Positions 1,185 through 63,531 of a stretch of DNA of 64,000 nt are shown here, piece by piece. The notes under the pieces are model-generated. The model worked only from the letters and a program-made list of their open reading frames with translations. It ran no database searches and was not told the origin of the DNA. Where the stretch lies: IMG/VR virus record IMGVR_UViG_3300045988_174371, positions 32,001 to 96,000 of that record, one strand, 5' to 3'. The DNA is from a virus. Position numbers and translations under genes: made by a program. The number at the start of each line of letters is the position of its first letter. Position 1 is the first letter of the stretch.

Positions 1185-1223
1185 GATTGTTGCCTTTCAA
1201 GCTAAAGCTAACTTACAGAAAAT

Positions 1224-1253
1224 AGTGTATCACATGTTTCAGCCCCTGCGCAA
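1224..1253 (-). promoter_or_regulatory. family promoter
   Basis: minus-strand reading TTGCGC-N13-TGTGATACACT, upstream of 870..1184. Confidence 0.6.
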
Positions 1254-3374: not shown

Positions 3375-3466
3375 TGGCTAAACTCCTTAGCGTTGATGGC
3401 AGTTTAAATTAGTGAGCGGTAGAAGTCTTACCCCTTGTGGAAGGATAACCCCTCGCTACATATCTA

Positions 3467-3496
3467 AGTGTATCACATATTTTAATGGGGCAACAA
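3467..3496 (-). promoter_or_regulatory. family promoter
   Basis: minus reading TTGTTG-N13-TGTGATACACT upstream of 2835..3374. Confidence 0.55.
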
Positions 3497-4147: not shown

Positions 4148-5446
4148 CTAGTCTACCTCGGTGGCGGTAGAGGGCTTGAAGCGTTCCGGGAAGTATAGGC
4201 AGAAGTCGGTAATCTTACCGTCAATCCCCTCATCCTCATCCTCATCACCTTCATTGCCTTCAATGAGGCATAGAGGTGACTCAGAATCATCAAGCGTATA
4301 CTTCACACTCGCATTAACTGGGAGCTTATACGTACCCATCAGCTTATAATCATCTTCTTCAAGAAGTACATACTTCTTACCCTCGTGAGACTTAATGTAG
4401 TCATCAAGAACAGCATCCTCGCTATCGAGACCATTGAAAGGCAAGACAGCGAACTCCAACGAAGAGTAATCCCACACCTTATCGTAAGGAGCGCACTCCT
4501 CATCAGCCGGAATACTAGGGTTGAAGAAAATCATTGCGAGAACCAAAGCACCGGAAGCGTACATGAGCCACACCGGAGCTGACTGCGTGAAGAAGAACAG
4601 AGAGTACAATGCAACTAGTGCAATAGCCAGAAGAGCGGCGGAAGCAGTCATCACCAGCGAAGAGAAGGGGCGATGCAGAAGGCTCCAGCCGGGGAACTCC
4701 AAATCCCCCATCATCTTATCGTGATTGATACGCAGAATAGGCTCATCAATCAGACGGCTAACCTCATTCTCTCCAAAGTTCTCAACAGCCGCCGCATAAC
4801 GCTCAGCACGAGACTTCTCATAGACCGAACGAATCAAACCCTTAACAGGCTTCTTCTCAGACATCGGAACATGAATCTCATAATGCAGATAACGCCTAGC
4901 AGACTCCCACTCACCAAAGACAACCTTCAGCCTCGGAGCAGAACCCTCAATCGCATCATAAACAGTGCGGACGCTATCGACCCTATCCAGGGAACCCTTC
5001 GAGAAAACCGGAGCCACCGGCAAGACCTTAGCCTCACCATCATCCGAAACAGTGACCCAAAGCTTACCGTCAGCAACCTTGAAGAACCGCTCCACATACG
5101 GAGCACCCTCAGCGACACCCTCAACAGGTAGCACTTCATACTCGACAGCCTCATCATCACTGTAATCCTTCACAGCAAGAGGCTCACCGCTGGTACGCTT
5201 CCACAATGAAAAGCCAATGAGTGAACAAGTGAACGTAATCACCGAAGCGGGCAAAAGAAAAATTCCACTAACGAAAATGAAAAAGCCCGTAACCGGCGAA
5301 TAGCCGCCCGCAGTCGTAAGGTTAAACCCAGACAATGCGACACCGCCCAAGGACAGAAGTAGCATAGCCGCCGCGAAAGCGAACAGGTTACGCCGCGAAA
5401 GCTTAGTCAAAGCCCTAGGCTTAATCAATTTCTCGTAAAGAGACAA
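4148..5446 (-). CDS. membrane protein with internal duplication (432 aa, TTG start)
   Basis: two halves, each with about 3 TM followed by an acidic soluble segment (VEYEVLPVEG.. / LEFAVLPFNG..); GGAAGG SD 12 nt before TTG; preceded by structured leader element A. Confidence 0.7.
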   Translation of the reverse strand: MSLYEKLIKPRALTKLSRRNLFAFAAAMLLLSLGGVALSGFNLTTAGGYSPVTGFFIFVSGIFLLPASVITFTCSLIGFSLWKRTSGEPLAVKDYSDDEAVEYEVLPVEGVAEGAPYVERFFKVADGKLWVTVSDDGEAKVLPVAPVFSKGSLDRVDSVRTVYDAIEGSAPRLKVVFGEWESARRYLHYEIHVPMSEKKPVKGLIRSVYEKSRAERYAAAVENFGENEVSRLIDEPILRINHDKMMGDLEFPGWSLLHRPFSSLVMTASAALLAIALVALYSLFFFTQSAPVWLMYASGALVLAMIFFNPSIPADEECAPYDKVWDYSSLEFAVLPFNGLDSEDAVLDDYIKSHEGKKYVLLEEDDYKLMGTYKLPVNASVKYTLDDSESPLCLIEGNEGDEDEDEGIDGKITDFCLYFPERFKPSTATEVD

Positions 5447-5767
5447 ACCGATACACTACCTTCCAGTAATAAGAACGAATAAGAATGAGGAACAGCAAGA
5501 AGAAGCCACTCCCTTGTGTATGGGAAAGCTGAGCAGGCATCTAGAGAAGGATGCACCCAAATTAGGGAGAATGCTCACCTAATACATGAAGCGCATCCAG
5601 TTTCCCAACTCAGTTAGATGAGTCAAGGCTTAGCCCTGACGGTAACCCTTAGTCGGTAGATGCCAGCCTTTCCTGGTCTTGACACCGCCGCCACCTAATT
5701 ACTATCAGGCTCGGCAATGCCCATTTATTTCACGCACCTCGCCCGTCTCTCACAGGCAAGGTGCGTT
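5447..5767 (-). ncRNA. structured 5' leader carrying RNA element copy A
   Basis: about 320 nt without an ORF between promoter 5774..5803 and the 5446 start; hairpin 5735..5763 (loop UGUGAGAGAC) plus domain 5617..5695 (GGUGGCGGCGGUGUCAAGACCAGGAAAGGCUGGC ... CCUUGACUCAUC), homologous to 28463..28542 and 56070..56191. Confidence 0.6.
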
Positions 5768-5773
5768 AGCTCA

Positions 5774-5803
5774 AGTGTAACACAGACGAGCCCTGTGTGT
5801 GAA
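5774..5803 (-). promoter_or_regulatory. family promoter driving element A and 4148..5446
   Basis: minus reading TTCACA-N13-TGTGTTACACT. Confidence 0.55.
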
Positions 5804-8775: not shown

Positions 8776-9846
8776 CTAGCGCTTACGCTTCTTCTTCTTA
8801 GTGAGGAAGGCATTGGAAACTACCTTGAAGTGGGCGCGGTTTCCCAGCTCCCTGCGGGGCTTGCCGTCCTTGAAGTACCAGACGATACCCTCTACGGTTT
8901 CACCCGGCGCAACGGCAGAGGTGATGGTGTCAGGCTGAGCAACGGCATTGCCTGCGTCCCAGGTAACGTTGTCGAGGATGGGAACCCAGAGCCCTGCGTC
9001 CTTGAATCGACGTTCAACATCTGCGTTAGATGCGTGGAAAGCGCGGAAGTCTGCAACGTCGCCGGTGGCGAACTTAAACTTCGAGCTAATCTTGTTGCAG
9101 AAGAGTTCACCCTGTACCCATTCACCAGGCTTGAGGCTGTCGAACAGTTCTGCGTAGCGGGAGTAGCCGTCGCGGTAGTACTTCCAAGCGGAGCTGTTGA
9201 GTGCGTCCTGCTTGATGGCGTAGTTGCGGTTAGCGATGCGGATAGCGCCAGTTTCAACATCTCGCCAGACGGTCATGGAGGTTCCGTCAATCTTCTCGGT
9301 AGCGTACACATCATCAGCAGAGATGTTTTCGAAGAAGGAGGCGGGAATGTTCTGGACGCGCTCAGCATCAGTAGTGCCAATGAACCCTGGGAAGCTTTCC
9401 AGACCCTCTTCGCCAACCGCGAGGATAGCATCTTCAATGTGCTTGGTGACAATGCCGTCAAAGTAAGCATCAACCTCATCCTGGGAAGCCTCCGCAGATA
9501 GACCTTCAAAGCTTTCCAGGGGAAGCAGGAGACCTTGGGAGAGGCTTTCACGGAAGTGCTGGCTACGGAGCACAACACCTGAGATTGCCTTGCCGTTAAT
9601 GATGCGGGTTGCCTTCTTGCCCTTAATGGGGGCAAATGCAGGGAAGTCGCTACTCAGCAGGGAGTCAATCTCAAAGTAGACCGCCTTGTCGCCTTCCTGC
9701 ATGGTCTTGGGTGCTACCACCCACCATAGGGTGTTCTTAGGGTTTGCCATGTGGATGAAGTTTGCGGGGTCGTTGCATTCCTTGGTCTTGTCGATGGTGA
9801 CAATGCGGGCGAGGTGGCGGATGCCGTCTACAGCAGTCGATGCCAT
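8776..9846 (-). CDS. ATP-dependent RNA ligase, DRB0094/Rnl5-like (356 aa)
   Basis: nucleotidyltransferase motif I EKIDGTS (KxDG), motif III-like GELFC, motif IV EGIVW, motif V FKVVS; N-terminal OB-like region with AVYFEIDSLL, typical of the DRB0094 family; GAAAGGA SD. Confidence 0.8.
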   Translation of the reverse strand: MASTAVDGIRHLARIVTIDKTKECNDPANFIHMANPKNTLWWVVAPKTMQEGDKAVYFEIDSLLSSDFPAFAPIKGKKATRIINGKAISGVVLRSQHFRESLSQGLLLPLESFEGLSAEASQDEVDAYFDGIVTKHIEDAILAVGEEGLESFPGFIGTTDAERVQNIPASFFENISADDVYATEKIDGTSMTVWRDVETGAIRIANRNYAIKQDALNSSAWKYYRDGYSRYAELFDSLKPGEWVQGELFCNKISSKFKFATGDVADFRAFHASNADVERRFKDAGLWVPILDNVTWDAGNAVAQPDTITSAVAPGETVEGIVWYFKDGKPRRELGNRAHFKVVSNAFLTKKKKRKR

Positions 9847-11750: not shown

Positions 11751-12055
11751 GCACAGTAAGGTAAGGCGGGGCATCTCCAACTAAGGAGGTGTCCCGCCTT
11801 ACCATGCCCTGCAACCCCTGAGCCTGCCATGAGCGCCACTTTTGGCGGATGTGAGGTAAATATTCCACCGTCTCGCTTACCGTTATGGTAGGGGCGTTCC
11901 GCTTCTCGCGCAGTATTCTTCGCGGTGTTAAGGTCATGGTCAAGCTTGTACCCACAATGCCCGCAGTGGAACATGCGGTCACTCAACCCCTGCTTCTCAG
12001 TTGCGCGCTCCTCACAGTTACTACAGGTCTGAGATGACGAATTGAAATGCGTCAA
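11747..12055 (-). pseudogene. tnpB: truncated TnpB (IS200/IS605-family OrfB) C-terminal remnant
   Basis: SSQTCSNCEE..GLSDRMFHCGHCGYKLDHDLNTAKN matches the TnpB zinc-ribbon/RuvC-III C-terminus (TSQxCSxCG...LSxRxxxCxxCG...DRDxNAAxN); the ~350 aa N-terminal part is absent and the region upstream is the promoter/RBS of 12140..12574. Confidence 0.65.
11760..11803 (+). terminator. hairpin terminator
   Basis: GGTAAGGCGGGG ... CCCGCCTTACC immediately after the 11750 stop. Confidence 0.65.
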
Positions 12056-12139
12056 TACTAAATAGGTGGGAAGATAGTTCTGTCAAGCCGCTACAAACTG
12101 GCGGCACACATTCATGCTATCAACATCAAGGAGACCCCT

Positions 12140-12574
12140 ATGCAGAACGACTACCAGCCGGGCGAAGACCTCACCATCACCATTGCGCACATCGAGCACA
12201 ACATCAAGGTTCTTACCGTCATTCATAAGAAGGCGCAGGCATTGCTCGACAAGCCCATTGAGGCGCTATATGCCATGACCGATGCCTTTGAGGAAGGGGA
12301 GCCGGTAAACATGCCGATGAACCTCAAGGCTGTTACCCGCATTCAGAAAGTAGATGCTATCTTGAGGGATGCGCGGGCGGTTATTGAGGATGCGCGGCTA
12401 TCCCTTGCTATTATGGCGTGCGGCGGCATTAACCTAGAGTCTTTCAACTCTGACAGTATGGTGATGCGAGATGCTGTGGCGCTTGAGGTTACTACAGGGA
12501 AGGCAGTGGAGGAGCTTTCTGTTCGCTGGTTGGAGCACTCCACTCACCTAGATACCGTAGGTGAGGAGTTCTAA
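12140..12574 (+). CDS. hypothetical protein (144 aa)
   Basis: AAGGAG SD; terminator 12587..12624. Confidence 0.75.
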   Translation: MQNDYQPGEDLTITIAHIEHNIKVLTVIHKKAQALLDKPIEALYAMTDAFEEGEPVNMPMNLKAVTRIQKVDAILRDARAVIEDARLSLAIMACGGINLESFNSDSMVMRDAVALEVTTGKAVEELSVRWLEHSTHLDTVGEEF

Positions 12575-14684: not shown

Positions 14685-15290
14685 CTATTCGTTATGCAAC
14701 ACGCGGCGCAAAGAACCCGTATCCACAGGCACAGTAAGACCAGATGCCGTAATAGTAGGCGGCTCAGCAGTACGTCGAGCCCTCTGCCAAATACTCACAA
14801 TAACACCAACAAGCACAAAAGCATTACCAATGAGATTCGTGTAACTGCCCACCGCAATGTAGTAGCTAACCCACGCGGCAACATTCAGCAATGTAACAGT
14901 TTTAAGCAACGCGAAACTCTCCATGAGCGCCATAGCAAGCCCAGTAGCACCACCCAAAAGAGCAAGAGTGCCCGGAGACCAAACCCCACGCCCAAGAACC
15001 GCATACTGAGTAACCGCCGCCGCCACAACCGCAACACCCATAGACGTTACCCTATAGACGGTCGTCTGCACGAACTTCAGCCTATCCTCCAGCATGAGCA
15101 TACTGTAATAAGTGAGGTTCACCAGGTTCATCACCAGCACACTCGACTGCCCAAGCAGAAACGACTGTATGCCTGTCATGAGGCACATGCCAAAGCTTAG
15201 GTTCCTCACCCATCGCCGGTCAGCATAGCCAATAAAGAATAGCGAAGCGCTAATACACAGCCCCAATACCTGAACGATAATCATAGACAT
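14685..15290 (-). CDS. YgjV-like inner membrane protein (201 aa)
   Basis: multi-TM; the N-terminal FFIGYADRRWVRNLSFGMCLMTGIQSFLLG and C-terminal NVAAWVSYYIAVGSYTNLIGN blocks resemble my recollection of E. coli YgjV; SD spacing is long. Confidence 0.5.
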   Translation of the reverse strand: MSMIIVQVLGLCISASLFFIGYADRRWVRNLSFGMCLMTGIQSFLLGQSSVLVMNLVNLTYYSMLMLEDRLKFVQTTVYRVTSMGVAVVAAAVTQYAVLGRGVWSPGTLALLGGATGLAMALMESFALLKTVTLLNVAAWVSYYIAVGSYTNLIGNAFVLVGVIVSIWQRARRTAEPPTITASGLTVPVDTGSLRRVLHNE

Positions 15291-17997: not shown

Positions 17998-18046
17998 GAT
18001 TACTCCCTTTAGGGTGATGACTTAATGATTGACTGTAACTACTATT

Positions 18047-18076
18047 AGTGTATCACATATTTTAGGGTATGTGCAA
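18047..18076 (-). promoter_or_regulatory. family promoter (consensus copy)
   Basis: minus reading TTGCAC-N13-TGTGATACACT. Confidence 0.7.
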
Positions 18077-21213: not shown

Positions 21214-21257
21214 TAGATGTCTCCAATCTGCAAAATAGTTAAGCGGTTGTGCTTACG

Positions 21258-21342
21258 TGTGCCTGGCGGGATTCGAACCCGCACGTCCTATTGCGGACAC
21301 CAGCCCCTCAAGCTGGCGTGTCTACCATTCCACCACAGGCGC
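21258..21342 (-). tRNA. tRNA-Leu(GAG), class II, copy 1
   Basis: cloverleaf read by eye: D-arm GTG/CAC with GAATGGTAGA loop, anticodon stem CCAGC/GCTGG, loop TTGAGGG, long variable arm, T-arm GCGGG-TTCGAAT-CCCGC; C2-A71 mismatch in the acceptor stem relative to copy 2. Confidence 0.8.
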
Positions 21343-21504
21343 TAAAGTCAAAGCCAGGCAGGGCTTCCACCCCCTCCGCCTCATTGTATCCCCGTCCAGG
21401 GTGAGGCGGTGAGAACGGATGCCTTCCGGGTGCTATCCAACACCCCTTGCCTGGCTCCTGGGGTCTCAATCCGAAACCCTTTAGGCGGTTTCTCAACCGT
21501 TGAT
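21343..21504 (-). ncRNA. structured RNA (copy D1) co-transcribed upstream of tRNA-Leu(GAG)
   Basis: about 160 nt between the promoter and the tRNA 5' end; homologous to 47912..48073 (shared GAGUUAUCAACGGUUGAGAARCCGCC, GGAGCCAGGYAAGGGG, CGGAAGG, GCCURGCUUUGA); local helices differ by compensatory changes. Confidence 0.6.
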
Positions 21505-21510
21505 AACTCC

Positions 21511-21540
21511 ACTGTACCACAATGATTTTGAGGTATGCAA
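21511..21540 (-). promoter_or_regulatory. family promoter (strong)
   Basis: minus reading TTGCAT-N13-TGTGGTACAGT. Confidence 0.7.
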
Positions 21541-21630
21541 GTCGAATTGATGTGAGGTGAGACATGTGGCATTGCGGATTACCTCGCCGTTACCTGGGTC
21601 GCTTCACGGAGATTCCCGTCAGCACTTTTG

Positions 21631-24263: not shown

Positions 24264-25115
24264 CTATCGCCTAAAGGTTACCATCGCTGGTTCCCATTCG
24301 CCGCCTGGCTTCACTGACTCGATAATGTAGCTGTACCCGGTGAGGTCTTGACTCATCGGTTTAGCCGCGCTTAGGACAATGAACGGGGCGGGCACCCTGC
24401 GGTTGATGCCGGTGACGCTGGTTACGACGGCAACATCCTTTGCAATGAAAGTTACCTGAGCCCTCCCCCTCCCAGACAAGTATTCTGCTGGGTTTCTATC
24501 CCTCAGATGATAGTATTGCGATTCGCGGTAAAGGAACGAATCGAATGCCCAACCGTCGCCCTTGCTGAAGTCTACATACATGGGGATGGTGGACTCGTTG
24601 AGGGTGGGTGCATTAGTGTTGTCGAGGGAATTGACATGCCATGTTAGGGCGTGTGACATTTCCTCAATGTCCCCATCAGACCCATCTGGGTTGTGGGGGC
24701 GGTTTGAGCCAGAAAATGATGCGGTTTTAAAACCTGACTTACCGAGAATGGTGCTGTGGTCCCACCAGCGAACAAGTTTTCCACCCCATTCCGCTACGTC
24801 GTATTTGGTGTTTAGTAGAATAGTGAGGGAGTTCGCCCCGAAGGTTTCAGGGAACACTACACCGCGAGGGTCGTGAACATAGATGCACCTGTCCCTATCA
24901 TAAAACTCTCTGGGGGTGTCGCCACCGAAATACTTCGCGGCATCTCGGTCGGTCGCATATCGCGCCTTACCCGTGTCGATGATGGACTGAATCTGGTGCT
25001 TCCTGTATCCGCGTTTAATCTCGTAGAAACCGTCACGGGCGGCACTTGCGCGTAACTGCTGATTCTCTTCACCCACACCTACAAGGGATAGGGCGGCGCA
25101 CCTCCTCTTGAACAC
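24264..25115 (-). CDS. SHN-YGW family paralog, distal part of a frame-split gene (283 aa)
   Basis: contains the second-type core (IYVHDPRGVVFPETFGANSLTILLN...RWWDHSTILG) and the C-terminal MYVDFSKGDGWAF...TGYSY domain; its N-terminus (VGVGEENQQLRASAAR) continues the homology interrupted in 25069..25752. Confidence 0.7.
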   Translation of the reverse strand: MFKRRCAALSLVGVGEENQQLRASAARDGFYEIKRGYRKHQIQSIIDTGKARYATDRDAAKYFGGDTPREFYDRDRCIYVHDPRGVVFPETFGANSLTILLNTKYDVAEWGGKLVRWWDHSTILGKSGFKTASFSGSNRPHNPDGSDGDIEEMSHALTWHVNSLDNTNAPTLNESTIPMYVDFSKGDGWAFDSFLYRESQYYHLRDRNPAEYLSGRGRAQVTFIAKDVAVVTSVTGINRRVPAPFIVLSAAKPMSQDLTGYSYIIESVKPGGEWEPAMVTFRR

Positions 25116-25752
25116 TCTTATCCACCATTATGTCCTTGTCAATGGTGTTTGCGTAAGCTGGAACCCACCCACCGTATGCTACAGCTTTCTCGCCACCATT
25201 CGTCCAGCCGAACATATTGTTGTGGGAGCTTCTGCTAACGAACTTGTGGGAGTGCTCCTTCGCGTCAATCTTTGGCGACAGAATGTATTCACGCGACTTA
25301 GCGCCACACATATCGCTCAAGCTCCCCTTCGGGCGCTGTTTATGCGGGTCTGAAACCACCGCAAAATGCGGGTAGTCGTAATCATAGAAGTGTGTGATGT
25401 GATTGCCTTGCAGTAGATAATCCTTGAGCCACAGGTTGTATGCGGCAAGGTCATCCATCTTGTCCCAGTCACGCTTCTTAGGGTTCCGGCGCATACGCTC
25501 CATCTGCTTCTCGCTGAGAGGGTTGATACGCTGAGATTCAATCAGATGCTCAGTAATGAATCTGCTAGTAGTGACGTTAGCTTCCTTGCGGCGCACTTCC
25601 TTCTTCATGTCAGACGCATGGGCAACAGAGCTATCATCCAGGGCGACGTTTCCACAGAAGCTAGTGGACGCTTGGCGTGCTTCGGCTTCTACAGCAAGAG
25701 TCTCGCCAAAACTGAAGTTCCGCCACGCGGATTTGAAAGCATATCGCGGCAC
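25069..25752 (-). CDS. SHN-YGW family paralog, proximal part of a frame-split gene (227 aa, GTG start)
   Basis: AAGGAG SD 7 nt before GTG; YNLWLKDYLLQGNHITHFYDYDYP...FVSRSSHNNMFGWTNGG...NTIDKDIMVDKSV matches the N-domain of 42827.. and 45630.. Confidence 0.75.
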   Translation of the reverse strand: MPRYAFKSAWRNFSFGETLAVEAEARQASTSFCGNVALDDSSVAHASDMKKEVRRKEANVTTSRFITEHLIESQRINPLSEKQMERMRRNPKKRDWDKMDDLAAYNLWLKDYLLQGNHITHFYDYDYPHFAVVSDPHKQRPKGSLSDMCGAKSREYILSPKIDAKEHSHKFVSRSSHNNMFGWTNGGEKAVAYGGWVPAYANTIDKDIMVDKSVQEEVRRPIPCRCG

Positions 25753-27295: not shown

Positions 27296-27343
27296 TGCTA
27301 GTGGTTGCGGGGCGTTTATACCCCTTTTTTCGCTTATATGCAT

Positions 27344-27373
27344 AGTTTACCACAGATTTTAGAATATGTGCAG
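27344..27373 (-). promoter_or_regulatory. family promoter
   Basis: minus reading CTGCAC-N13-TGTGGTAAACT. Confidence 0.65.
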
Positions 27374-27568: not shown

Positions 27569-27984
27569 TATTCTGTCACCACCGGAACCGCCTTCTCTGC
27601 GCTACCTACGGGTACATGGATAATCGTTTCCGCCTTCACAAACTTCACGGTAACGTTCCTGGTACAAGAGCCATACAGGGTAACATCTGCTTTTTCGTAC
27701 CTTAGTGGGTCGATGCATTCTTTGTGTCCGGCAGCGATTTCCTCAGGATTGAGCGCGTACTCGTACTTACGTTCGACGCGAGCCTCCGTATCAGTAGCGG
27801 GCAAGTCGTCCTTCACAACCACTTCCATTGGCGCATCTAGCGACCCTTTATACACCTTTCGAGCGGCAAGAGTGCCATCAGAGCGCTTCTCAACCCACCT
27901 ATAAGTGGTGCCTTCAGGATTGACTCTCAGATTTGAGATGGGGTAGGTGTGTTTCGCCTTCCATTTTACGGTTGTCGGCATCAA
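27568..27984 (-). CDS. C-terminal (extracytoplasmic-domain) half of a frame-split TM-domain family paralog (138 aa)
   Basis: HTYPISNLRVNPEGTTYRWVEKRSDGTL...DLPATDTEARVE...IIHVPVGS aligns with residues ~165-291 of 30028..30903. Confidence 0.65.
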   Translation of the reverse strand: MMPTTVKWKAKHTYPISNLRVNPEGTTYRWVEKRSDGTLAARKVYKGSLDAPMEVVVKDDLPATDTEARVERKYEYALNPEEIAAGHKECIDPLRYEKADVTLYGSCTRNVTVKFVKAETIIHVPVGSAEKAVPVVTE

Positions 27985-28453
27985 CGTAGTGCGTCACAGG
28001 CTGAGTGAACTTCGCATCCTCAGCCTTTGCGCCATTGACCATTGAGGTAGCCATCCCTACAAGAAGTAGGGAGAGTAGGTAGATAAGCCCGGTCAGGTAC
28101 ACATCTTCAGCCTTTATACCCTCCTTGTACTCTTCCACTGCTCCCCCTTGGTTGAAGGAGCTGATGGCGGCGACAAGGGTTATGATAGCCGCAATGATGA
28201 CGTGAGCTATAAGCCAGCGTGCGTCAAAGAATAAGACGAGCACACATGACACTGCTACGTGGGCGGCAACGAATAGGCGCGCCCACCGCCGCATAAACGA
28301 GTTCACGGCATAAGTTGTCCTGCTTACCTGCCGGTCTTTAGTGATGATGGCAGTGACCACTATAAGCGGGATGAGGATATAGGCGGCAATGCTCACAACG
28401 GTGGCTATAAGCCATGCTGTATTGGTGTCCATAAAGGGTTGTTGTCCTCTCAT
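27914..28453 (-). CDS. N-terminal (multi-TM) half of a frame-split TM-domain family paralog (179 aa)
   Basis: 4 TM then KFTQPVTHYVDADNRKMEGE aligning with KFTQSVSYYLDADNHKLEGD of 30028..30903; the frame is lost near 27950. Confidence 0.65.
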   Translation of the reverse strand: MRGQQPFMDTNTAWLIATVVSIAAYILIPLIVVTAIITKDRQVSRTTYAVNSFMRRWARLFVAAHVAVSCVLVLFFDARWLIAHVIIAAIITLVAAISSFNQGGAVEEYKEGIKAEDVYLTGLIYLLSLLLVGMATSMVNGAKAEDAKFTQPVTHYVDADNRKMEGETHLPHLKSESQS

Positions 28454-28576
28454 GTATAGTCAGGTGGGTCAAGGTTTAGCTCCTGGCGATAGTCCTCCAG
28501 GTAACTAACGCCAGCCTTCTCGGTCTTGACACCGCCGCCACCCCATAGAGCTTTGGCAGTGCCCCCTCGCTGGCGG
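28454..28576 (-). ncRNA. structured leader carrying RNA element copy B
   Basis: GGUGGCGGCGGUGUCAAGACCGAGAAGGCUGGCG...CGCCAGGAGCUAAACCUUGACCCACC (28463..28542), ending 10 nt before the ATG at 28453. Confidence 0.55.
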
Positions 28577-29341
28577 TTAGCGATTGAGCTTGTTGTCTAT
28601 TTCAGTGGCAATTACGTCCCTGATGATTTCGTCTATAGTGTGTCGCTCCTGGTGGTCTGCCCAGGTGGTTGCCTCAATGGTGGCGTGGGTGGGGAGTCTG
28701 TCGATGAGGTGCGCGAGCTTCGCTGAGGTTTCCTTAATCTCGTTGTAGAGTTCTTCGAGTGCTTCGCCGGTCAGCCATTCCTTTTGGGTTACAGGCGGCG
28801 TAGCGCTAGTGGGCGGGGTAGTGAGAAGGTTTAACACTTCTCGTACTGCTTCCACTGCGGGCTCGGTGGTTGCCAGGGCGTTCTCCAGGTGTGAGGTGAA
28901 GGTGCGGAGGTTGATGTTTGCCACTGCTTCACGGTAGGACTCATGCTTGTACTGCTCGGCTTCGGCGTATTCCATAATTGGCGCAATGTAGGGGCTGTTT
29001 CGCAAGGTAGCCGGAAGGCTGTGGCGACTGTAGCTTGTGTCATGGTCGTGCAGTAGCGTGTAGTATGCCAGGGCATGTAGCTTCTGGGTAAGTACAGTGT
29101 CTTGAGTGGGGATGTTCGTTTCGGGCATGAACGTGTAACCTGCGTGTTCGTAGCCGCCTACGTAGTCGTCGCTCCTATGCCAACCGGCAAGGTTTTCGGT
29201 GGGTACGTAGTATCCGTGCCCGTTGCGGTCAAGGTGTAGGGTGGCACCTAGCACGTTGAACCAGGTTGCGCCGGTTTCCTTGTCGTGGTGTTGGGCTACG
29301 AGGGTGTTTACGTATTCTTCTAGGGTGATTTCTGTGGACAT
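28577..29341 (-). CDS. hypothetical protein (254 aa; track ORF trimmed)
   Basis: AGAGGAA SD before the ATG at 29341 (MSTEITLEE..). Confidence 0.7.
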   Translation of the reverse strand: MSTEITLEEYVNTLVAQHHDKETGATWFNVLGATLHLDRNGHGYYVPTENLAGWHRSDDYVGGYEHAGYTFMPETNIPTQDTVLTQKLHALAYYTLLHDHDTSYSRHSLPATLRNSPYIAPIMEYAEAEQYKHESYREAVANINLRTFTSHLENALATTEPAVEAVREVLNLLTTPPTSATPPVTQKEWLTGEALEELYNEIKETSAKLAHLIDRLPTHATIEATTWADHQERHTIDEIIRDVIATEIDNKLNR

Positions 29342-29444
29342 TATTTCCTCTAGTTCTTTCGTTGGCTTGTGATACCCCTGCATAATCATGGTTCGGTTAA
29401 TGCAGGGGTATCCAGTGTGGCACTGCTGGAGTGCCTTGTGATGG

Positions 29445-29867: not shown

Positions 29868-29935
29868 TTGTAGGGGAACCTTTCAGTAGGTAGCGTTGTT
29901 GATGGTGGGCGGGTAGCCCGTTCAGTAATACCCAT

Positions 29936-29965
29936 AGTGTATCACATAATTTAGCTTGGGTACAG
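29936..29965 (-). promoter_or_regulatory. family promoter
   Basis: minus reading TGTGATACACT core. Confidence 0.6.
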
Positions 29966-31747: not shown

Positions 31748-31813
31748 GACTTGAAGCCTTTCGGTTGAGATGTGCGGTTCGGTATTCCGAGGGGTTCCCC
31801 TCACTACATAAAT

Positions 31814-31843
31814 AGTGTATCACATAAATAACCTTGTGTGCAA
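31814..31843 (-). promoter_or_regulatory. family promoter (consensus copy)
   Basis: minus reading TTGCAC-N13-TGTGATACACT. Confidence 0.7.
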
Positions 31844-32155: not shown

Positions 32156-32878
32156 CTACCTCTTATAGACGTACTCTAGAAGCCTCAGAATCTCTAGGTA
32201 TACCCAAATGATAGACAGCATCAGCCCAAACGCTAGAGTCCAGCCAAAAGCATCTGGCGCGCCAGCGTCCACCGCCTCACCAATTTCAGTGAAGTCCATG
32301 AGGAGGCAGTAGACACCCATGCCGACGGCAAGCACTCCAAGAATAGCGCCAAGGGGTAGACCGAAAACGACGGTATCACTAATACTGAAACCAGTAAACG
32401 CCTGTATTGCGATAGAAGCAAACAGATAGATGATGTATGCGACCATGCCGATAAGGACGATGCGGGTCAGCTTCGGGTTTGACCTCGCGCCGAACATATA
32501 TGCCGCAAAGACTGTCATAAACGCAACAAGCGTGCCTAGTACAGCCGCCAATGCGATACCGGGGTATCGAGTCTGCGCCCACATGGTTACAGCACCAAGA
32601 GCAACGCCCTCAATACCGGCATACAGCAGTACAGCCCAAGCAGGAATATTGCCGCCACTCTTGAAAGCAAGCACTAGACCAAGCACGAACGCGATAAGCG
32701 CCGCCGGTAAAGCAAGTACAGGCGTGTACCAGCCGACAATACCACCAAGAAGCAAAACAGCAAACGAAAAGCCTGTCTTTGCGACGACACTGCTAGTGGT
32801 TAGCGGCTCAGCGTTAGTGCCATTTAAGCCCGGAATGTCTTTCATGCGACCATTCAGATAGGGGTTACGCGCACTCAC
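32156..32878 (-). CDS. Bax inhibitor-1/YccA family membrane protein (240 aa, GTG start)
   Basis: 7 predicted TM; N-terminal S-x-NP...TxxxVVAKT and C-terminal FGLMLSIIWVYLEILRLL are typical of actinobacterial BI-1/YccA proteins; GGGAGGA SD. Confidence 0.75.
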   Translation of the reverse strand: MSARNPYLNGRMKDIPGLNGTNAEPLTTSSVVAKTGFSFAVLLLGGIVGWYTPVLALPAALIAFVLGLVLAFKSGGNIPAWAVLLYAGIEGVALGAVTMWAQTRYPGIALAAVLGTLVAFMTVFAAYMFGARSNPKLTRIVLIGMVAYIIYLFASIAIQAFTGFSISDTVVFGLPLGAILGVLAVGMGVYCLLMDFTEIGEAVDAGAPDAFGWTLAFGLMLSIIWVYLEILRLLEYVYKR

Positions 32879-35597: not shown

Positions 35598-35662
35598 GAT
35601 AGGGGAACCTTTCGGTAGGAATTGATTGCTGGAAGATTTCTTTACTCTTCCTTTCTGTAAAT

Positions 35663-35692
35663 AGTGTATCACATATTTTAGAAACTATGCAA
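35663..35692 (-). promoter_or_regulatory. family promoter (consensus copy)
   Basis: minus reading TTGCAT-N13-TGTGATACACT. Confidence 0.7.
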
Positions 35693-42453: not shown

Positions 42454-42491
42454 TGATGCCCCTTCTGTAAGTGATTTCCTAAACTAATTAA

Positions 42492-42521
42492 AGTGTAGCA
42501 CATAATTCACAGTGAACACAA
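42492..42521 (-). promoter_or_regulatory. family promoter
   Basis: minus reading TTGTGT-N13-TGTGCTACACT. Confidence 0.6.
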
Positions 42522-42826: not shown

Positions 42827-43978
42827 TTAGTTGGTCAGGAAAGCGACACTAGCAGGCTCCCATTCTTCACCAAGATTCATTGAGTCAATGGTGTAGCTAT
42901 ACCCGGTGAGGTCTTGGTTTAGCGGCATTTCTGCCGTGAGGCAGATAAGCGGCAACGGGACATTGCTTGATGCGCCAATCCTGGTAACTACCGCAGATTC
43001 CTTATTGATGAACGTTACCGTCACCGAACCCCGGCGTTCTACTAGGTTGCCTAGGTATTTAGCGGGGTTAGTGTCCTTGAGGTGGTAGAAGCCTGAGTTC
43101 TCATAAAGGAAGCTCTTAAATGCCCATCCATCACCCTTATTGAAGTCCACGTACATAGGGAGCCGCGTGTAGTTGAGAGCGGGCGCATCACTGTTATCCT
43201 TAGATGCGACGTACATCTCCAGGACTTTAGATACATATTCGGCATCACTGCGACACTGGTTTCGCATAGGGGTGCGCGGTTTATCCCCTTGTAGCTCGTA
43301 GGCAATTCGCCAGAATGCGTCTTGCAGTTCGCTTGCGCGAGACTGCTCCTTAGACTCTGCTACACCCTTCAAGAGGTGGTGGCGAATCTCCTTAGGAATA
43401 GACTTGTCGTACATCATCTCTTTGTCAATGGTGTTCGTGTAGACGGGGACAAAGGTTCCGTATGTGGTAGGTTTCTTGCCCTGCTTTTCCCATCCAAACA
43501 CTCCACGCATACTGAGGTAATCCCTACTGCTGGCAGTGATGCCGCAATATTCCCACACATCAATCCCCGGCGATAGGATGCGTTCTCTATTGGTGCGTGG
43601 TCGATAGCTGTGACTGTCAGTAATCACTTCCATGCCTCGGCAGGGGTAGTCGTAAAAGTGGGTGGCTTTCCCGCCGCTCAGCAGATACTCTTTCAGCCAG
43701 AGGTTATACGCGGCTAGATAGTCAGGTTCCTCCACTTTCTCCGCCTTAACGGTTGCAAAGTTGATTCCAACCCTCCCCTTCAGGCGGTGTGCCCGCGCAT
43801 GGTTGATACGGGGCTCCGGCAAGAGGACAGTACTGGTCTTGCTTTGACTAGGCGCAGTTTGTGCAGTATTCACCTTAAGAAGGGTGATACTGTTCTTAGG
43901 GTCGCGCCATGCGGCACGGTAGGTGTTGCCGCGAGCGCCTGCGTATCGTGCAGTGAATTTCGAGAGCACGTCTTTCAT
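42827..43978 (-). CDS. SHN-YGW family paralog, fused N- and C-domains (383 aa)
   Basis: GGAG SD; AAYNLWLKEYLLSGG...RGVFGWEKQG...NTIDKEMMYDKSIP... plus MYVDFNKGDGWAF...TGYSYTI. Confidence 0.8.
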   Translation of the reverse strand: MKDVLSKFTARYAGARGNTYRAAWRDPKNSITLLKVNTAQTAPSQSKTSTVLLPEPRINHARAHRLKGRVGINFATVKAEKVEEPDYLAAYNLWLKEYLLSGGKATHFYDYPCRGMEVITDSHSYRPRTNRERILSPGIDVWEYCGITASSRDYLSMRGVFGWEKQGKKPTTYGTFVPVYTNTIDKEMMYDKSIPKEIRHHLLKGVAESKEQSRASELQDAFWRIAYELQGDKPRTPMRNQCRSDAEYVSKVLEMYVASKDNSDAPALNYTRLPMYVDFNKGDGWAFKSFLYENSGFYHLKDTNPAKYLGNLVERRGSVTVTFINKESAVVTRIGASSNVPLPLICLTAEMPLNQDLTGYSYTIDSMNLGEEWEPASVAFLTN

Positions 43979-47839: not shown

Positions 47840-47875
47840 CACGTAGTCACGTGGGACACCTCACACCAATTCGAC

Positions 47876-47905
47876 TTGCATACCCCAAATAATCTGTGAT
47901 ACGAT
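47876..47905 (+). promoter_or_regulatory. family promoter (strong), divergent from 47810..47839
   Basis: TTGCAT-N13-TGTGATACGAT. Confidence 0.7.
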
Positions 47906-47911
47906 AGAGTT

Positions 47912-48073
47912 ATCAACGGTTGAGAAGCCGCCCAAACAAACCCCGGATGGGGTTTAAGGGAGCCAGGTAAGGGGCGCTGGAAAGCCGCTCGGAAGGTTTC
48001 TCACTTACTGTCTTGCCCCGGATGGGGACTACCCGCTAGACACTAAGTGAGAAACCCGCCTAGCTTTGAGTAA
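47912..48073 (+). ncRNA. structured RNA (copy D2) co-transcribed upstream of tRNA-Leu(GAG)
   Basis: no ATG at all; hairpins AAACCCCGGAUGGGGUUU, CCCCGGAUGGGG and GUUUCUCACUUA...UAAGUGAGAAAC; homologous to 21343..21504. Confidence 0.6.
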
Positions 48074-48158
48074 GTGCCTGTGGTGGAATGGTAGACACGC
48101 CAGCTTGAGGGGCTGGTGTCCGACACAGGACGTGCGGGTTCGAATCCCGCCAGGCACA
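48074..48158 (+). tRNA. tRNA-Leu(GAG), class II, copy 2
   Basis: perfect acceptor GTGCCTG/CAGGCAC, anticodon loop TTGAGGG, variable arm GTCCGACACAGGAC, T-arm GCGGG-TTCGAAT-CCCGC. Confidence 0.85.
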
Positions 48159-51869: not shown

Positions 51870-51909
51870 TGGCTTACTTTCTGTGGGTAATGAATGATTA
51901 CCTGCATAT

Positions 51910-55950: not shown

Positions 55951-55990
55951 ACAGTAAAAGCCCTCACGACTAGGTGAGGGCTTTTACTGT
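55951..55990. terminator. bidirectional terminator
   Basis: 17-bp arms ACAGTAAAAGCCCTCAC/GTGAGGGCTTTTACTGT. Confidence 0.8.
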
Positions 55991-56200
55991 ACCTACATGG
56001 GTTACAGGAGCCACCTCAAAGCACAGGGGGGGGAGAAGCTTGGATTATAAGCTACTCTTCCCACTGCTGGGTGGGTCAGGGATTTTCCCTGGCGGTACCC
56101 CCCCCCGCCAGCCGAAGCCAGCCTTCCTGGTCTTGACGTGTTAGCGTCCGTTTAGTTTACCCACCTCTCCCAGTCTCTCACAGGCGAGGTGTATTGGTTG
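55991..56200 (-). ncRNA. free-standing RNA element copy C
   Basis: starts right after the 56201 stop and ends at terminator 55951..55990 with no ORF; hairpin 56162..56191 (loop UGUGAGAGAC) plus domain 56070..56137 (GUCAAGACCAGGAAGGCUGGC..CUGGCGG..CCGCCAG..CCCUGACCCACC). Confidence 0.55.
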
Positions 56201-62613: not shown

Positions 62614-63531
62614 ATGACCATTCTTCAAAAGTATATGATGGGCTCTTCCGCCGCGCTCCTAACATGCTTCCTAACGGCGGCGCTACTAATCGCCATTATT
62701 GCCTCTGTTCGCCGCTATCTTGATGCGCGGGCGGTAAGGAAGGGTTTGGCTTTACCAAGCGGCGCTTCCTCTTGGTTCACCTACGCATACGGTGTCGTAG
62801 CTCTGCTTCACCTAATCATTGCCCTTACTTTGGCAGGGGACAACCAGGACATGTTTGTCACTGTTTTTTGGACGGGTCTAGCAATACCCTTGATGGTACT
62901 AGTCCTCTATCACGTCATTCAAGGCATAGGTAATGATAGTGCCCCTCAGGATGCCCCCAGCGAATCCGACCTCATATCGCAGTATAAGGCGACATACTTC
63001 GACACTCTTCTACTGACTGCAATATGTACTATCTTTGCGACCATTTTTGCCGTCGTCGGTAGCACTGTCTATGAGAGTAAAACGGTCGTTACCGAGGTTA
63101 TAGATGGGCGAGTAGTGGAGTATCGAGGCGAAATTGAACTCACCTCTAACGGTGTAGCTGTCACTATAGCGCCCGCAACGAGTGAATATGAAGAATACGA
63201 CTATGTTTCGAAGAACCATCAGCGGAGGGAAGCTACGAGCACTGTTGCCACCTGGCTTGAGCGTGACTCTAGCGGCTCTGTAAAGACCGTCTCTATCGAC
63301 ACGGGCGGGCGGGGCGGTTTCAACATTGCCGATGACCTACCTGCCGGTGAAGCGCCTTACGTCACCTACACGCCTCAGTACAGCTTGGATAGTTACAGTA
63401 AGCCAGGTGATGCCCTCTGCGTCATGAAGCGTGACACTGGTTGCCCGCTAAATGCACGCCATATCTATGATTCTGTCACGATACATATTCCTGCTGGGTC
63501 TACAGACAGGATGGTGAGCACGAAAGCTTAA
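62614..63531 (+). CDS. TM-domain family paralog (305 aa)
   Basis: AGGAAGG SD; N-terminal TMs; ..TWLERDSSGSV..DLPAGEAPYVT..C..C..TIHIPAGS. Confidence 0.8.
   Translation: MTILQKYMMGSSAALLTCFLTAALLIAIIASVRRYLDARAVRKGLALPSGASSWFTYAYGVVALLHLIIALTLAGDNQDMFVTVFWTGLAIPLMVLVLYHVIQGIGNDSAPQDAPSESDLISQYKATYFDTLLLTAICTIFATIFAVVGSTVYESKTVVTEVIDGRVVEYRGEIELTSNGVAVTIAPATSEYEEYDYVSKNHQRREATSTVATWLERDSSGSVKTVSIDTGGRGGFNIADDLPAGEAPYVTYTPQYSLDSYSKPGDALCVMKRDTGCPLNARHIYDSVTIHIPAGSTDRMVSTKA

What the first reader, a model, noticed from the sequence alone, without database searches (positions are those of the whole stretch)
5447..5803. Three-copy structured RNA element, copy A: promoter-proximal 320-nt leader of a membrane-protein gene
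A roughly 320-nt ORF-free leader sits between a family promoter (TGTGTTACACT) and the TTG start of 4148..5446.

It has two blocks that recur at 28463..28542 and 56070..56191:
- Block 1 is a hairpin, CACCUUGCCUGUGAGAGACGGGCGAGGUG. Copy C has CACCUCGCCUGUGAGAGACUGGGAGAGGUG, with the same UGUGAGAGAC loop.
- Block 2 is a domain, GGUGG-cggcggu-GUCAAG-ACCAGGAAAGG-CUGGC...GUCAG-GGCUAAG-CCUUGAC-UCAUC.

Base changes between the copies preserve pairing:
- The inner helix is CUGGC/GUCAG in A, CUGGCG/CGCCAG in B and CUGGCGG/CCGCCAG in C.
- The outer strand is CCACC in B and C but UCAUC in A, which still pairs with GGUGG through G-U.
- A G(U/G)UACC motif sits in the enclosed loop of all three copies.

This pattern argues for a selected RNA fold, either a riboswitch-like cis-regulator or a processed sRNA. 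I cannot assign it to a known class from memory.
Basis: partly seen in the sequence, partly recalled or inferred. Interest (0 to 1): 0.8.

Follow-up and report, generated by a model that had tools for sequence, protein, structure and literature searches.

The report
Phage Cas12n guide-RNA genes
The three-copy "mystery RNA" is the guide-RNA scaffold (tracrRNA fused to one CRISPR repeat and one spacer) of a Cas12n nuclease carried by an uncultured clade of jumbo phages, which scatter dozens of such single-guide genes through their genomes, apparently aimed at sister phages.

Summary
The three copies are real and all lie on the minus strand: A 5616-5764, C 56069-56192, and B 28462-28579, which is decayed. 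More than 300 further copies occur in about 85 metagenomic contigs of related 240-370 kb phages. Across them 98% of predicted pairs hold and 25 of 37 pairs show compensatory changes.

No Rfam family matches, but this is not a new class. In relatives the element starts about 20 nt after an intact Cas12n gene (E=4e-171 to the solved Rothia dentocariosa Cas12n structure). My model of the element also hits the tracrRNA region beside a bacterial Rothia cas12n gene (E=8e-12). The element's 3' hairpin-plus-UGGCUC module is homologous to that locus's CRISPR repeat.

The about 20 nt after each repeat behave as spacers. They match sites in other phages of the clade that carry the Cas12n-type AAN PAM.

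The new part is the arrangement:
- fused single-guide units, tens per genome
- many units interleaved with tRNAs or starting at promoters
- many spacers equal to the unit's own flank, which is homing logic

The riboswitch reading is rejected. No cas12n gene lies in the window, and no target was found for the spacers of A or C.

The parts
5774..5784 (-). Copy A promoter: extended -10 (TGTGTTACACT). The element starts 10 nt downstream, at about the transcription start.
   Evidence: Sequence. In related loci, 18 of 23 promoter-proximal copies start 8-13 nt after a TGnTAnA(A/C)T motif. Transcription itself is not shown.
5616..5764 (-). Copy A scaffold, tracrRNA-like. P1 5735-5763, A-rich J1/2 5722-5734, P2 5681-5721, P3/P3a 5644-5678, P4 5622-5640, tail 5616-5621.
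   Evidence: Covariance model hit of 104 bits, E 3e-27. Helices supported by family covariation. Coordinates.
5528..5615 (-). Copy A 3' extension of the scaffold: the CUCA..UGGG hairpin, GGAAAC, and the long hairpin GGAUGCGC...GGGUGCAUCC.
   Evidence: Sequence comparison with other long-type members and with the Rothia tracrRNA tail ...GGAAAC. The structure was not tested by covariation.
5502..5527 (-). Copy A CRISPR repeat, a divergent version: UUUCCCAUACACAAGGGAGUGGCUUC.
   Evidence: Hairpin-plus-GGCU(C/U) module found by scan. The family consensus is UUCCCC-N7-8-GGGG-N-UGGCUC. It is homologous to the Rothia V-N repeat GTTCCCCGTATGCGCGGGGATGAGCC.
5480..5501 (-). Copy A predicted spacer (UUCUUGCUGUUCCUCAUUCUUA). 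It overlaps the 5' UTR of ORF 4148-5446.
   Evidence: Assigned from its position after the repeat. No target was found in the held loci, the window or IMG/VR.
28462..28579 (-). Copy B: decayed scaffold remnant between ORF 28577-29389 and ORF 27914-28453. P2, P3 and P4 are recognisable; P1, the repeat and the spacer are absent.
   Evidence: Covariance model hit of 24.7 bits with mismatched P3/P3a/P4 pairs and 12 model positions deleted. Sequence.
56069..56192 (-). Copy C scaffold. P1 56162-56191, P2 56135-56149, P3/P3a 56097-56132 (P3a has a UUCG loop, followed by a run of 9 G), P4 56075-56093, tail CCACCC.
   Evidence: Covariance model hit of 102 bits, E 1e-26. Coordinates. Orthologue in L014.
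56008..56035 (-). Copy C CRISPR repeat: CUCCCCCCCCUGUGCUUUGAGGUGGCUC. Its GGUGG is complementary to the tail CCACC (anti-repeat).
   Evidence: Sequence. The same repeat type occurs in L010, L014 and L104.
55986..56007 (-). Copy C predicted spacer (CUGUAACCCAUGUAGGUACAGU).
   Evidence: Assigned from its position after the repeat. Only the orthologous self copy was found in IMG/VR; no target in the held data.
55956..55985 (-). Intrinsic terminator directly after the copy C spacer (AAAAGCCCUCAC..GUGAGGGCUUUU).
   Evidence: Sequence. Terminator-like Rfam sub-threshold hits at 55951-56005.
62797..62820 (-). Predicted protospacer (62797-62817) plus AAT PAM (62818-62820) inside ORF 62614-63531. It is matched by the spacer of a guide unit in a related phage (L125).
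   Evidence: 21/21 match after the PAM. L125 1-260 equals window 62558-62817 at 97%, and the L125 unit replaces window 62818 to about 63959.
11894..12145 (-). C-terminal relic of a second Cas12n/TnpB-like gene (zinc ribbon plus RuvC-III motif DHDLNTAKN). It is not adjacent to any copy of the element.
   Evidence: Pfam Cas12f1-like_TNB 2.5e-10. 50% identity to the last 54 aa of the clade's Cas12n. tblastn.

Best explanation
Copies A and C are genes for single-guide-like RNAs of a phage-borne type V-N CRISPR-Cas12n system.

Each transcript has three parts:
- a tracrRNA-like scaffold of about 130-230 nt. It has a P1 hairpin with an invariant GUGAGAGAC loop, an A-rich linker, three further helices P2, P3/P3a and P4, and an anti-repeat tail
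- one CRISPR repeat (a small hairpin ending ...GGGG-N-UGGCUC)
- about 20 nt of spacer

A is made from its own promoter. C is made by read-through of the upstream operon and ends at a terminator.

The RNA would load onto a Cas12n nuclease encoded elsewhere in the phage genome. In close relatives that gene sits at the head of the tRNA array. The complex would cut DNA that carries 5'-AAN followed by the spacer sequence.

Targets seen for other family members are alleles in sister phages. In the unit's own genome, a sample of 10 homologous sites mostly carried mismatches, and at flank-type units the repeat takes the place of the PAM. For many units the spacer is simply the unit's own flank. Cutting the unit-less allele of a co-infecting relative and repairing it from the unit-bearing genome would then copy the unit, which is homing or marker exclusion.

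Copy B is a dead remnant.

Shown: homology, structure, genomic association, repeat identity, PAM-flanked matches. Inferred: expression, processing, loading, cleavage and homing.
For: 1. Structure. 23 copies give 37 pairs, 20 of them compensatory. 136 distinct copies give 98.0% of cells paired, against 31-44% when partners are slid by 1-3 columns, and 25 of 37 pairs have double changes. That alignment was fitted to the model.

2. Abundance. 240 plus 73 covariance model hits in loci from about 85 contigs.

3. Effector.
- A 520-aa ORF ending ...DRDxNAAINIRREAERLHAEA* lies about 20 nt upstream of an element in many of the 28 loci that carry the gene.
- Pfam assigns OrfB_IS605, Cas12f1-like_TNB and HTH_OrfB_IS605.
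- It matches PDB 9J09, RdCas12n, at E=4e-171, with the motifs holding D287, E386 and D484 conserved (GVDLG, EDLN, DRD; PMC12216341).

4. Homology of the RNA. Model R1 hits L154-L157 at 4554-4711 (47 bits, E 8e-12), across the 3' end of a Rothia mucilaginosa cas12n homologue. This is where Cas12n tracrRNAs lie (PMC12216341).

5. Repeat. That locus continues with a 6-11 repeat CRISPR array, depending on the assembly. Its repeat GTTCCCCGTATGCGCGGGGATGAGCC resembles the phage module UUCCCCGUACACGCGGGGAUGGCUC. The tracr tail CUCAUCCCC is complementary to GGGGAUGAG.

6. PAM and targets.
- [G/C]AA precedes 31% of non-orthologous matches of the stretch just after the repeat. The figure is 0-12% at six control offsets and 3.5% one base out of frame.
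- AA is present at 67 of 151 non-self sites with at most 1 mismatch.
- The first base after the repeat is often mismatched, which fits the N of AAN.

7. Self versus non-self. Targets have 0-1 mismatch in other contigs, while the spacer's own contig has 2-4 mismatches or a lost PAM in 9 of 10 cases.

8. Flank logic. 18 of 40 spacers continue in homology with the target locus. This includes L125 against window 62797-62817.

9. Relatives. The closest relative, IMGVR_UViG_3300045988_174689, carries orthologues of A (L002) and C (L014) and an intact cas12n gene (L028/L016).
Against: - No cas12n gene lies in the 64-kb window, only a C-terminal relic at 11894-12145. Its presence in this phage is inferred from relatives.
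- No target was found for the spacers of A or C.
- Copy A's repeat is divergent (GGCUUC), and I could not find a convincing anti-repeat:repeat pairing for it.
- The pseudoknot (CUC with the GAG of the P1 loop) is proposed by analogy only. Mutual information gave no signal for it.
- The self/non-self comparison rests on about 10 sites in partial metagenomic contigs.
- Many non-PAM matches in the target scans are repeat-family noise.
- There are no expression or biochemical data.
Confidence: 0.85

Rival explanations
1. The element is a riboswitch-like or other cis-acting leader that controls the downstream membrane-protein gene.
For: Copy A starts at a promoter and lies upstream of ORF 4148-5446. 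Copy B abuts the start of ORF 27914-28453. No Rfam family matches.
Against: Downstream genes of 70 non-tRNA copies fall into more than 40 unrelated clusters. 119 of 225 copies follow a tRNA and 118 precede one. Copy C and L010:7585 are followed by terminators. The fold is homologous to a Cas12n tracrRNA region and carries a repeat and spacer.
Confidence: 0.02
2. Copies A and C are inert remnants of decayed CRISPR/tracr or IS605-type omega-RNA loci, carried along by duplication and without present function.
For: Copy B is clearly decayed. The window holds a truncated Cas12n/TnpB relic. Copy A's repeat is divergent.
Against: A and C score 104 and 102 bits, like functional-looking members. More than 300 copies keep all helices through compensatory changes. 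The orthologues in L002, L085, L087 and L014 are conserved, including repeat and spacer. Spacers across the family have PAM-flanked matches.
Confidence: 0.06
3. The RNAs guide Cas12n, but only as conventional interference that destroys competing phages or other invaders, or for gene regulation. They would have no homing or self-propagation. The antisense-to-tRNA spacers might even act on RNA.
For: 16 of 40 PAM-flanked matches are true spacer-type with no flanking homology, including 11 antisense-to-tRNA-gene sites. From my own knowledge, phage-borne CRISPR arrays aimed at other phages have been described (Al-Shayeb 2020; Medvedeva 2019).
Against: 18 of 40 spacers are simply the unit's flank, with the PAM at the junction in the unit-less allele. 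That is the geometry of TnpB-type homing (PMC13565253). The catalytic residues are intact, which argues against a pure repressor.
Confidence: 0.3

Closest known systems
Type V-N (formerly V-U4) CRISPR-Cas12n guide RNA: the tracrRNA plus crRNA of Rothia dentocariosa Cas12n (PDB 9J09/9UDI; PMC12216341)
   Same: - The effector is about 60% identical over 500 aa, with the catalytic motifs and most PAM-contacting residues kept.
- The scaffold lies at the 3' end of the effector gene.
- It has several stems, with variable upper parts in stems 2 and 3 (my P2 and P3a).
- The repeat is of the same family, and the PAM is A-rich AAN.
- My model detects the bacterial tracr region at E 8e-12.
   Different: - In the phages the tracr scaffold is physically fused to a repeat and a single spacer. 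In the short type the join is a 4-9 nt loop, giving a natural single-guide RNA.
- There are tens of such units per genome, away from the cas gene, at promoters and between tRNAs.
- Only 1-4 repeats follow a scaffold, and they are degenerate with covarying stems.
- No adaptation genes were seen.
TnpB omega-RNA/reRNA of IS200/IS605 elements (ISDra2; PMC10097598)
   Same: - One long RNA with scaffold plus 3' guide, starting at the end of the nuclease gene.
- For 18 of 40 units the guide equals the DNA flanking the unit, and the target is the unit-less allele with the motif at the junction. This is the homing logic reviewed in PMC13565253.
   Different: - No TnpA and no left or right end structures were recognised.
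- The nuclease is a conserved, syntenic phage gene rather than a sporadic IS.
- A CRISPR-type repeat sits between scaffold and guide.
- The motif is AAN, not TTGAT.
- The Rfam IS605-orfB motifs, which I recall being in Rfam, did not match.
Virus-borne mini-CRISPR arrays and solitary repeat units used in conflicts between viruses (my own knowledge: Medvedeva et al. 2019; Faure et al. 2019; review PMC11656645 seen only as a search hit)
   Same: One or two spacers per unit, carried by a virus and aimed at close relatives of that virus, with the carrier itself mismatched.
   Different: Those arrays rely on the host's Cas proteins and have no tracr scaffold. Here the phage brings its own Cas12n, and every unit carries its own scaffold.
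Free-standing homing endonucleases in phage tRNA regions (T4 SegB; cited in PMC13565253)
   Same: A nuclease activity targets tRNA-gene regions of co-infecting relatives and favours inheritance of the carrier's alleles.
   Different: Recognition here would be RNA-guided and spread over many independent guide genes served by one nuclease in trans.
Engineered polycistronic tRNA-gRNA arrays (my own knowledge; Xie et al. 2015)
   Same: Guide RNAs alternate with tRNAs on one strand, so RNase P and RNase Z could release them.
   Different: The phage arrangement is natural. Processing by tRNA enzymes is not shown, and several spacers before tRNAs also contain promoters.

Membership tests
Type V-N CRISPR-Cas12n guide RNA (tracrRNA/crRNA) | A Cas12n effector gene is next to the RNA | tested here: met
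   Met in related loci: the 520-aa ORF ends about 20 nt before an element in L113, L016, L043, L069 and others, and it matches RdCas12n at E=4e-171. Not met inside the window, which has only a relic at 11894-12145.
Type V-N CRISPR-Cas12n guide RNA (tracrRNA/crRNA) | Scaffold homologous to the tracrRNA region at the 3' end of bacterial cas12n genes | tested here: met
   R1 hit of 47.1 bits, E 8.4e-12, at L154-L157 4554-4711. The ORF ends at 4689.
Type V-N CRISPR-Cas12n guide RNA (tracrRNA/crRNA) | Multi-stem scaffold with a pseudoknot between the last repeat nucleotides and the stem-1 loop (PMC12216341) | tested here: inconclusive
   The stems are supported by covariation. CUC before the spacer could pair with the invariant GAG of the P1 loop, but there was no covariation signal because both sides are invariant.
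Type V-N CRISPR-Cas12n guide RNA (tracrRNA/crRNA) | CRISPR repeat of the V-N type, whose 3' half pairs with the tracr anti-repeat | tested here: met
   The phage module resembles the Rothia repeat. Tail CCA-ACCC pairs with GGGG-A-UGG in the short type, and CCACC with GGUGG in copy C. No convincing pairing was found for copy A.
Type V-N CRISPR-Cas12n guide RNA (tracrRNA/crRNA) | 5'-AAN PAM next to protospacers | tested here: met
   AA at positions -2 and -1 in 67 of 151 non-self matches. [G/C]AA in 31% against 0-12% in controls. This is in silico only.
Type V-N CRISPR-Cas12n guide RNA (tracrRNA/crRNA) | Separate tracrRNA gene plus a multi-spacer CRISPR array with uniform repeats | tested here: not met
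   The phage units have scaffold, repeat and spacer in one piece, with 1-4 degenerate repeats and variable spacing. This is the main departure from the canonical locus seen in Rothia.
TnpB omega-RNA of IS200/IS605 transposons | Lies inside a transposon with TnpA and left/right end hairpins | tested here: inconclusive
   No TnpA was seen beside the nuclease in L113 or L016. There is no shared sequence upstream of P1 across contexts. No systematic search for ends was made.
TnpB omega-RNA of IS200/IS605 transposons | Guide equals the flanking DNA, and the target is the empty site preceded by the adjacent motif | tested here: met
   18 of 40 spacers with AA-flanked non-self targets continue in at least 70% homology for 68 nt. 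Worked example: L125 against the window.
Riboswitch / cis-regulatory leader | Consistent association with one gene family or pathway, with an expression platform at the gene start | tested here: not met
   Downstream ORFs are diverse, and many copies are flanked by tRNAs or terminators.
Any Rfam 15 family | Score at or above the gathering threshold | tested here: not met
   Only 4 tRNAs pass in the window. Nothing credible at E<=10 over copies A and C, or at E<=1 over a tRNA-array locus.

The most novel reading that the evidence does not exclude
Guide-RNA genes themselves act as selfish homing elements. Each scaffold-repeat-spacer unit uses one phage Cas12n in trans to cut the unit-less or sensitive allele of a co-infecting sister phage, and is then copied in by repair. 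This has filled these jumbo-phage genomes with tens of units. Those between tRNA genes would form natural tRNA-guide-RNA arrays released by tRNA-processing enzymes. The fused scaffold-repeat form would be a living intermediate between a TnpB omega-RNA and a split tracrRNA/crRNA system.
Probability: 0.45. Interest if true: 0.9.

Novelty: new variant of a known kind. Interest (0 to 1): 0.78.

Why it matters
The finding turns an unassigned RNA motif into a predicted RNA-guided nuclease system in an almost unannotated clade of jumbo phages.

If the inferences hold, three things follow:
- Natural single-guide RNAs exist for a Cas12 enzyme.
- A virus can spread many independent guide genes, served by one nuclease, across its genome and inside tRNA arrays.
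- RNA-guided cutting is used between sister phages with homing geometry. That links TnpB-style selfish homing, CRISPR interference and phage marker exclusion.

It also bears on how omega-RNAs became tracrRNA plus crRNA, and it offers compact natural sgRNA designs for Cas12n editors.

In practical terms, the window's copies A and C can now be annotated, and a protospacer in ORF 62614-63531 predicts which relatives can attack this phage.

Tried and rejected
Database and pattern searches that gave nothing useful:
- Rfam at gathering and at permissive E-values gave nothing.
- The phage collection gave nothing by DNA or with one large ORF.
- The core pattern in GTDB genomes gave 5 hits, all chance, with no covariance model match.

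Resemblances considered from memory and dropped because they do not hold across family members or have no model hit:
- T-box (the GGGUnACCG box)
- SRP domain IV
- hairpin ribozyme
- HDV-like or theta ribozymes
- put-type antiterminators
- CsrA sponge
- Y RNA

Other ideas that failed:
- The idea that the 3' module is a tRNA 5' fragment or a permuted acceptor stem was dropped once the Rothia CRISPR repeat was seen.
- The idea that the module is a phage promoter or terminator was dropped because it does not occur apart from the element in the window.
- Mutual information to find the pseudoknot partner gave only lineage signal.
- A first count of 'non-orthologous' spacer matches did not separate guides from controls, because the repeat family itself is repetitive. 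Only the PAM test did.
- Rothia array spacers do not match these phages, so the host is not established.
- Spacers A and C have no target in the window, the held loci or IMG/VR.
- The phage-encoded 'Cas12 hacker' system is different: it has a GTN PAM.
- Literature searches found no description of dispersed Cas12n or TnpB guide genes in phages, but the library is incomplete.

Full report
**What is in the window.** Read on the minus strand, 5447-5803 holds an extended -10 promoter TGTGTTACACT (5774-5784). It is followed 10 nt later by a hairpin, CACCUUGCCUGUGAGAGACGGGCGAGGUG, and then a longer conserved region. A covariance model built later and run over the whole window with filters off finds exactly three copies. 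They are A at 5616-5764 (104 bits), C at 56069-56192 (102 bits) and B at 28462-28579 (24.7 bits); the next hit scores 8.6 bits. B lacks the 5' hairpin, has mismatched pairs in P3, P3a and P4, and has no 3' module. I treat it as a decayed remnant.

**Not a known Rfam family.** At gathering thresholds the window has only four tRNAs. Permissive scans over copies A and C, and later over a tRNA-array locus, give nothing credible.

**A very large family in one clade of jumbo phages.**
- Exact-pattern scans of IMG/VR found the element only in two contigs of 307 and 319 kb, with many copies each.
- A scan of metagenome contigs with the hairpin pattern returned 109 stretches. Most of the longer ones come from contigs of 240-370 kb.
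- The covariance model finds 240 and 73 hits in those loci. Five pattern hits in GTDB genomes were chance, with no model match.
- The window is a third, close relative of IMGVR_UViG_3300045988_174689, which has orthologues of copy A (L002) and copy C (L014).
- The phage is otherwise almost unannotatable. Of 77 ORFs only about ten have Pfam or PHROG matches, and nothing matches isolated phages closely.

**Structure.** RNAalifold on 23 copies gives 37 pairs, 20 with compensatory changes.
- Over 136 distinct sequences, 98.0% of cells pair, against 31-44% when partners are slid by 1-3 columns. 25 of 37 pairs show double changes, and no shuffle out of 500 reaches the observed values.
- That alignment was fitted to the model, so the numbers lean its way. 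The size of the effect, and the GNRA and UUCG loops on the variable hairpins, leave little doubt.
- The many G-U pairs, and the fact that every neighbouring tRNA is on the same strand, show that this strand is the RNA.
- The fold is P1 (invariant loop GUGAGAGAC), an A-rich linker UAAAcUAAAC, P2 (variable length), AA, P3 GACC/GGUY enclosing P3a, ACC, P4, then a C-rich tail.

**The 3' module.** Downstream of the core there are one to four copies of a small hairpin plus a fixed tail, consensus UUCCCC-N7-8-GGGG-N-UGGCUC. After it all conservation stops. In the short form, the core tail and the module form one helix: CCA-ACCC / GGGG-A-UGG. In the window the module occurs only with copy A (5502-5527, a divergent version ending GGCUUC) and copy C (56008-56035).

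**Context rules out a gene-specific regulator.**
- Of 225 cores found by a regular expression, 119 start 20-40 nt after a same-strand tRNA and 118 are followed by one.
- At least 18 start 8-13 nt after an extended -10, which is at the transcription start, as copy A does.
- Some are followed directly by terminators, as copy C is.
- The ORFs downstream of 70 non-tRNA copies fall into more than 40 unrelated clusters.

**The link to a nuclease.** Listing what lies upstream of the elements showed a recurrent ORF end...DLNAAINIRREAERLHAEA*, about 20 nt before P1.
- The full ORF is 520 aa (L113:1511-3073). It has OrfB_IS605, Cas12f1-like TNB and HTH_OrfB_IS605 domains.
- It is present at 82-98% identity in about 28 loci, at the head of the tRNA array and followed by an element wherever the 3' flank is held.
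- Its best solved relative is the Cas12n of Rothia dentocariosa (9J09/9UDI, E=4e-171). The motifs that hold the catalytic D287, E386 and D484 are conserved, as is the PAP part of the PAM-reading loop (PMC12216341).
- The nearest cellular homologues are Rothia TnpB/InsQ-annotated proteins at 54-58% identity.

**The RNA is the Cas12n guide scaffold.** I fetched the Rothia mucilaginosa locus of one such homologue.
- The phage-derived model hits it at 4554-4711 (47 bits, E 8e-12), across the end of the ORF. This is where Cas12n tracrRNAs are reported to lie (PMC12216341).
- A canonical CRISPR array follows, with the repeat GTTCCCCGTATGCGCGGGGATGAGCC. That repeat is plainly the homologue of the phage 3' module.
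- The tracr tail CUCAUCCCC is the complement of the repeat's GGGGAUGAG.
- The published RdCas12n sgRNA has five stems with flexible upper parts of stems 2 and 3. It also has a pseudoknot in which nucleotides -4 to -2 pair with the stem-1 loop. This maps onto P1-P4 plus the tail:repeat helix.
- By analogy, the CUC before the spacer would pair with the invariant GAG of the P1 loop. I could not test this, because both sides are invariant.

**Spacers and PAM.** I took the 22 nt after each repeat and looked for matches elsewhere in the held 1.2 Mb.
- The sites are preceded by [G/C]AA in 31% of cases (11 of 11 antisense-tRNA sites). The figure is 0-12% at six control offsets and 3.5% one base out of frame; chance is about 3%.
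- With a stricter repeat definition, 67 of 151 non-self sites with at most one mismatch have AA at positions -2 and -1.
- The first base after the repeat is often the only mismatch, as expected if it faces the N of AAN. RdCas12n prefers AAC and accepts AAH (PMC12216341).
- Targets match at 0-1 mismatch in other contigs. The spacer's own contig, where covered, has 2-4 mismatches or a changed PAM in 9 of 10 cases. This is a small sample from partial contigs.

**Two kinds of spacer.** Of 40 spacers with AA-flanked non-self targets, 16 are true spacers, where homology stops at the spacer end. Several of these are antisense to tRNA genes of sister phages, with the PAM supplied by the complement of the T-loop. 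Another 18 are simply the flank of the unit, where homology runs on.

The window gives a worked case. L125 positions 1-260 equal window 62558-62817 at 97%. The L125 unit stands where the window has 62818 to about 63959. In the window the junction reads GGGCAAT followed by the spacer sequence. This is the geometry by which TnpB elements home (PMC13565253). By the same logic, the window phage is a predicted target at 62797-62817, inside ORF 62614-63531.

**Reading of the three window copies.**
- A is a promoter-driven unit: scaffold 5616-5764, extension 5528-5615, repeat 5502-5527, spacer about 5480-5501. The spacer overlaps the 5' UTR of ORF 4148-5446.
- C lies at the end of the operon that includes ORF 56201-56857: scaffold 56069-56192, repeat 56008-56035, spacer 55986-56007, terminator 55956-55985.
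- Neither spacer has a target in the window, in the held loci or in IMG/VR. That is expected if the sensitive alleles are in phages I could not fetch, but it leaves these two units without direct support.
- The window has no cas12n gene, only a 41-50% identical C-terminal relic at 11894-12145. The closest relative has the intact gene.

**Novelty and limits.** The kind of RNA is known, so this is not a new class, although Rfam lacks it. I did not find the arrangement described in the searchable literature. That arrangement is:
- scaffold fused to a repeat and a single spacer
- tens of units per genome served by one nuclease
- interleaving with tRNAs
- sister-phage targets with homing geometry

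Everything beyond sequence, structure and association is inference: transcription, processing, loading, cleavage and homing. The host is unknown. Rothia or a relative is a guess from protein similarity, and Rothia array spacers do not match these phages.

Noticed in passing
window 1222-1252, 3465-3495, 18045-18075, 27342-27372, 29934-29964, 31812-31842, 35661-35691, 42490-42520, 51908-51938 and others: A promoter-like motif (extended -10, TGTGnTAYACT on the transcribed strand, often with TTGCA 17 nt upstream) recurs more than 20 times on both strands. The same motif drives many guide units and some tRNAs in related loci.
   Followed up: partly
window 11751-11812 and 11894-12145 (-): A truncated second Cas12n/TnpB-like gene (last ~84 aa only, 41-50% identical to the clade's Cas12n) is followed by a 28-nt inverted repeat. 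The downstream sequence does not match the element, so it may be the relic of a different omega/tracr type. An orthologous relic exists in L085.
   Followed up: partly
window 62797-62820 (-), inside ORF 62614-63531 (+): A protospacer with an AAT PAM is matched 21/21 by a guide unit of a related phage (L125, contig ODIQ01000012). In that phage the unit replaces about 1.1 kb, including most of this ORF.
   Followed up: yes
window 21257-21343 and 48073-48159; 21480-21568 and 47848-47936: Two tRNA-Leu(GAG) genes are 95% identical and lie in inverted orientation 26.7 kb apart. Each has a second 89-nt inverted-repeat segment nearby (81%). This is a possible inversion or recombination substrate.
   Followed up: no
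window 24264-25752, 42827-43978, 45630-46793 (-): Three paralogous genes of about 385 aa with no family assignment, 61-73% identical at the DNA level in blocks. The first appears split into two overlapping ORFs.
   Followed up: no
window 8776-9846 (-): An RNA ligase gene (PHROG 968, Pfam RNA_ligase). Its best matches are Microbacterium and Arthrobacter jumbo-like phages at about 32% identity. It may be relevant to tRNA repair in a phage with large tRNA arrays.
   Followed up: partly
window 56097-56105 and 56022-56029 (-): Copy C carries a run of 9 G replacing part of the conserved GAGGGU of P3, and a run of 8 C in its repeat. The orthologue L014 has the normal P3 sequence. These are either assembly-prone homopolymers or real variation that may weaken the fold.
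   Followed up: no
window 50387-50485: A 9-nt tandem repeat (CTTGGGTTY / CTTCGGCTT, 8 or more units) lies inside ORF 50228-51076 (-). It encodes a repetitive Lys/Pro/Glu-rich stretch.
   Followed up: no
related loci, e.g. L008 478-513, L016 4626-4655, L038 2931-2955: Between each tRNA 3' end and the following guide unit there is a conserved ACG(U/C)AR start and a small hairpin with a U-rich loop. CCA is not encoded. Its role is unknown; it could be a processing signal, or a left-end remnant of the unit.
   Followed up: no
window 32156-32878 (-) plus one other ORF; other window ORFs not individually located: Two Bax-inhibitor-1-like membrane proteins, a T7 gp5.9-like RecBCD inhibitor, a YgjV-like inner-membrane protein (14685-15290) and an HTH_17 protein are among the few assignable genes.
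   Followed up: no
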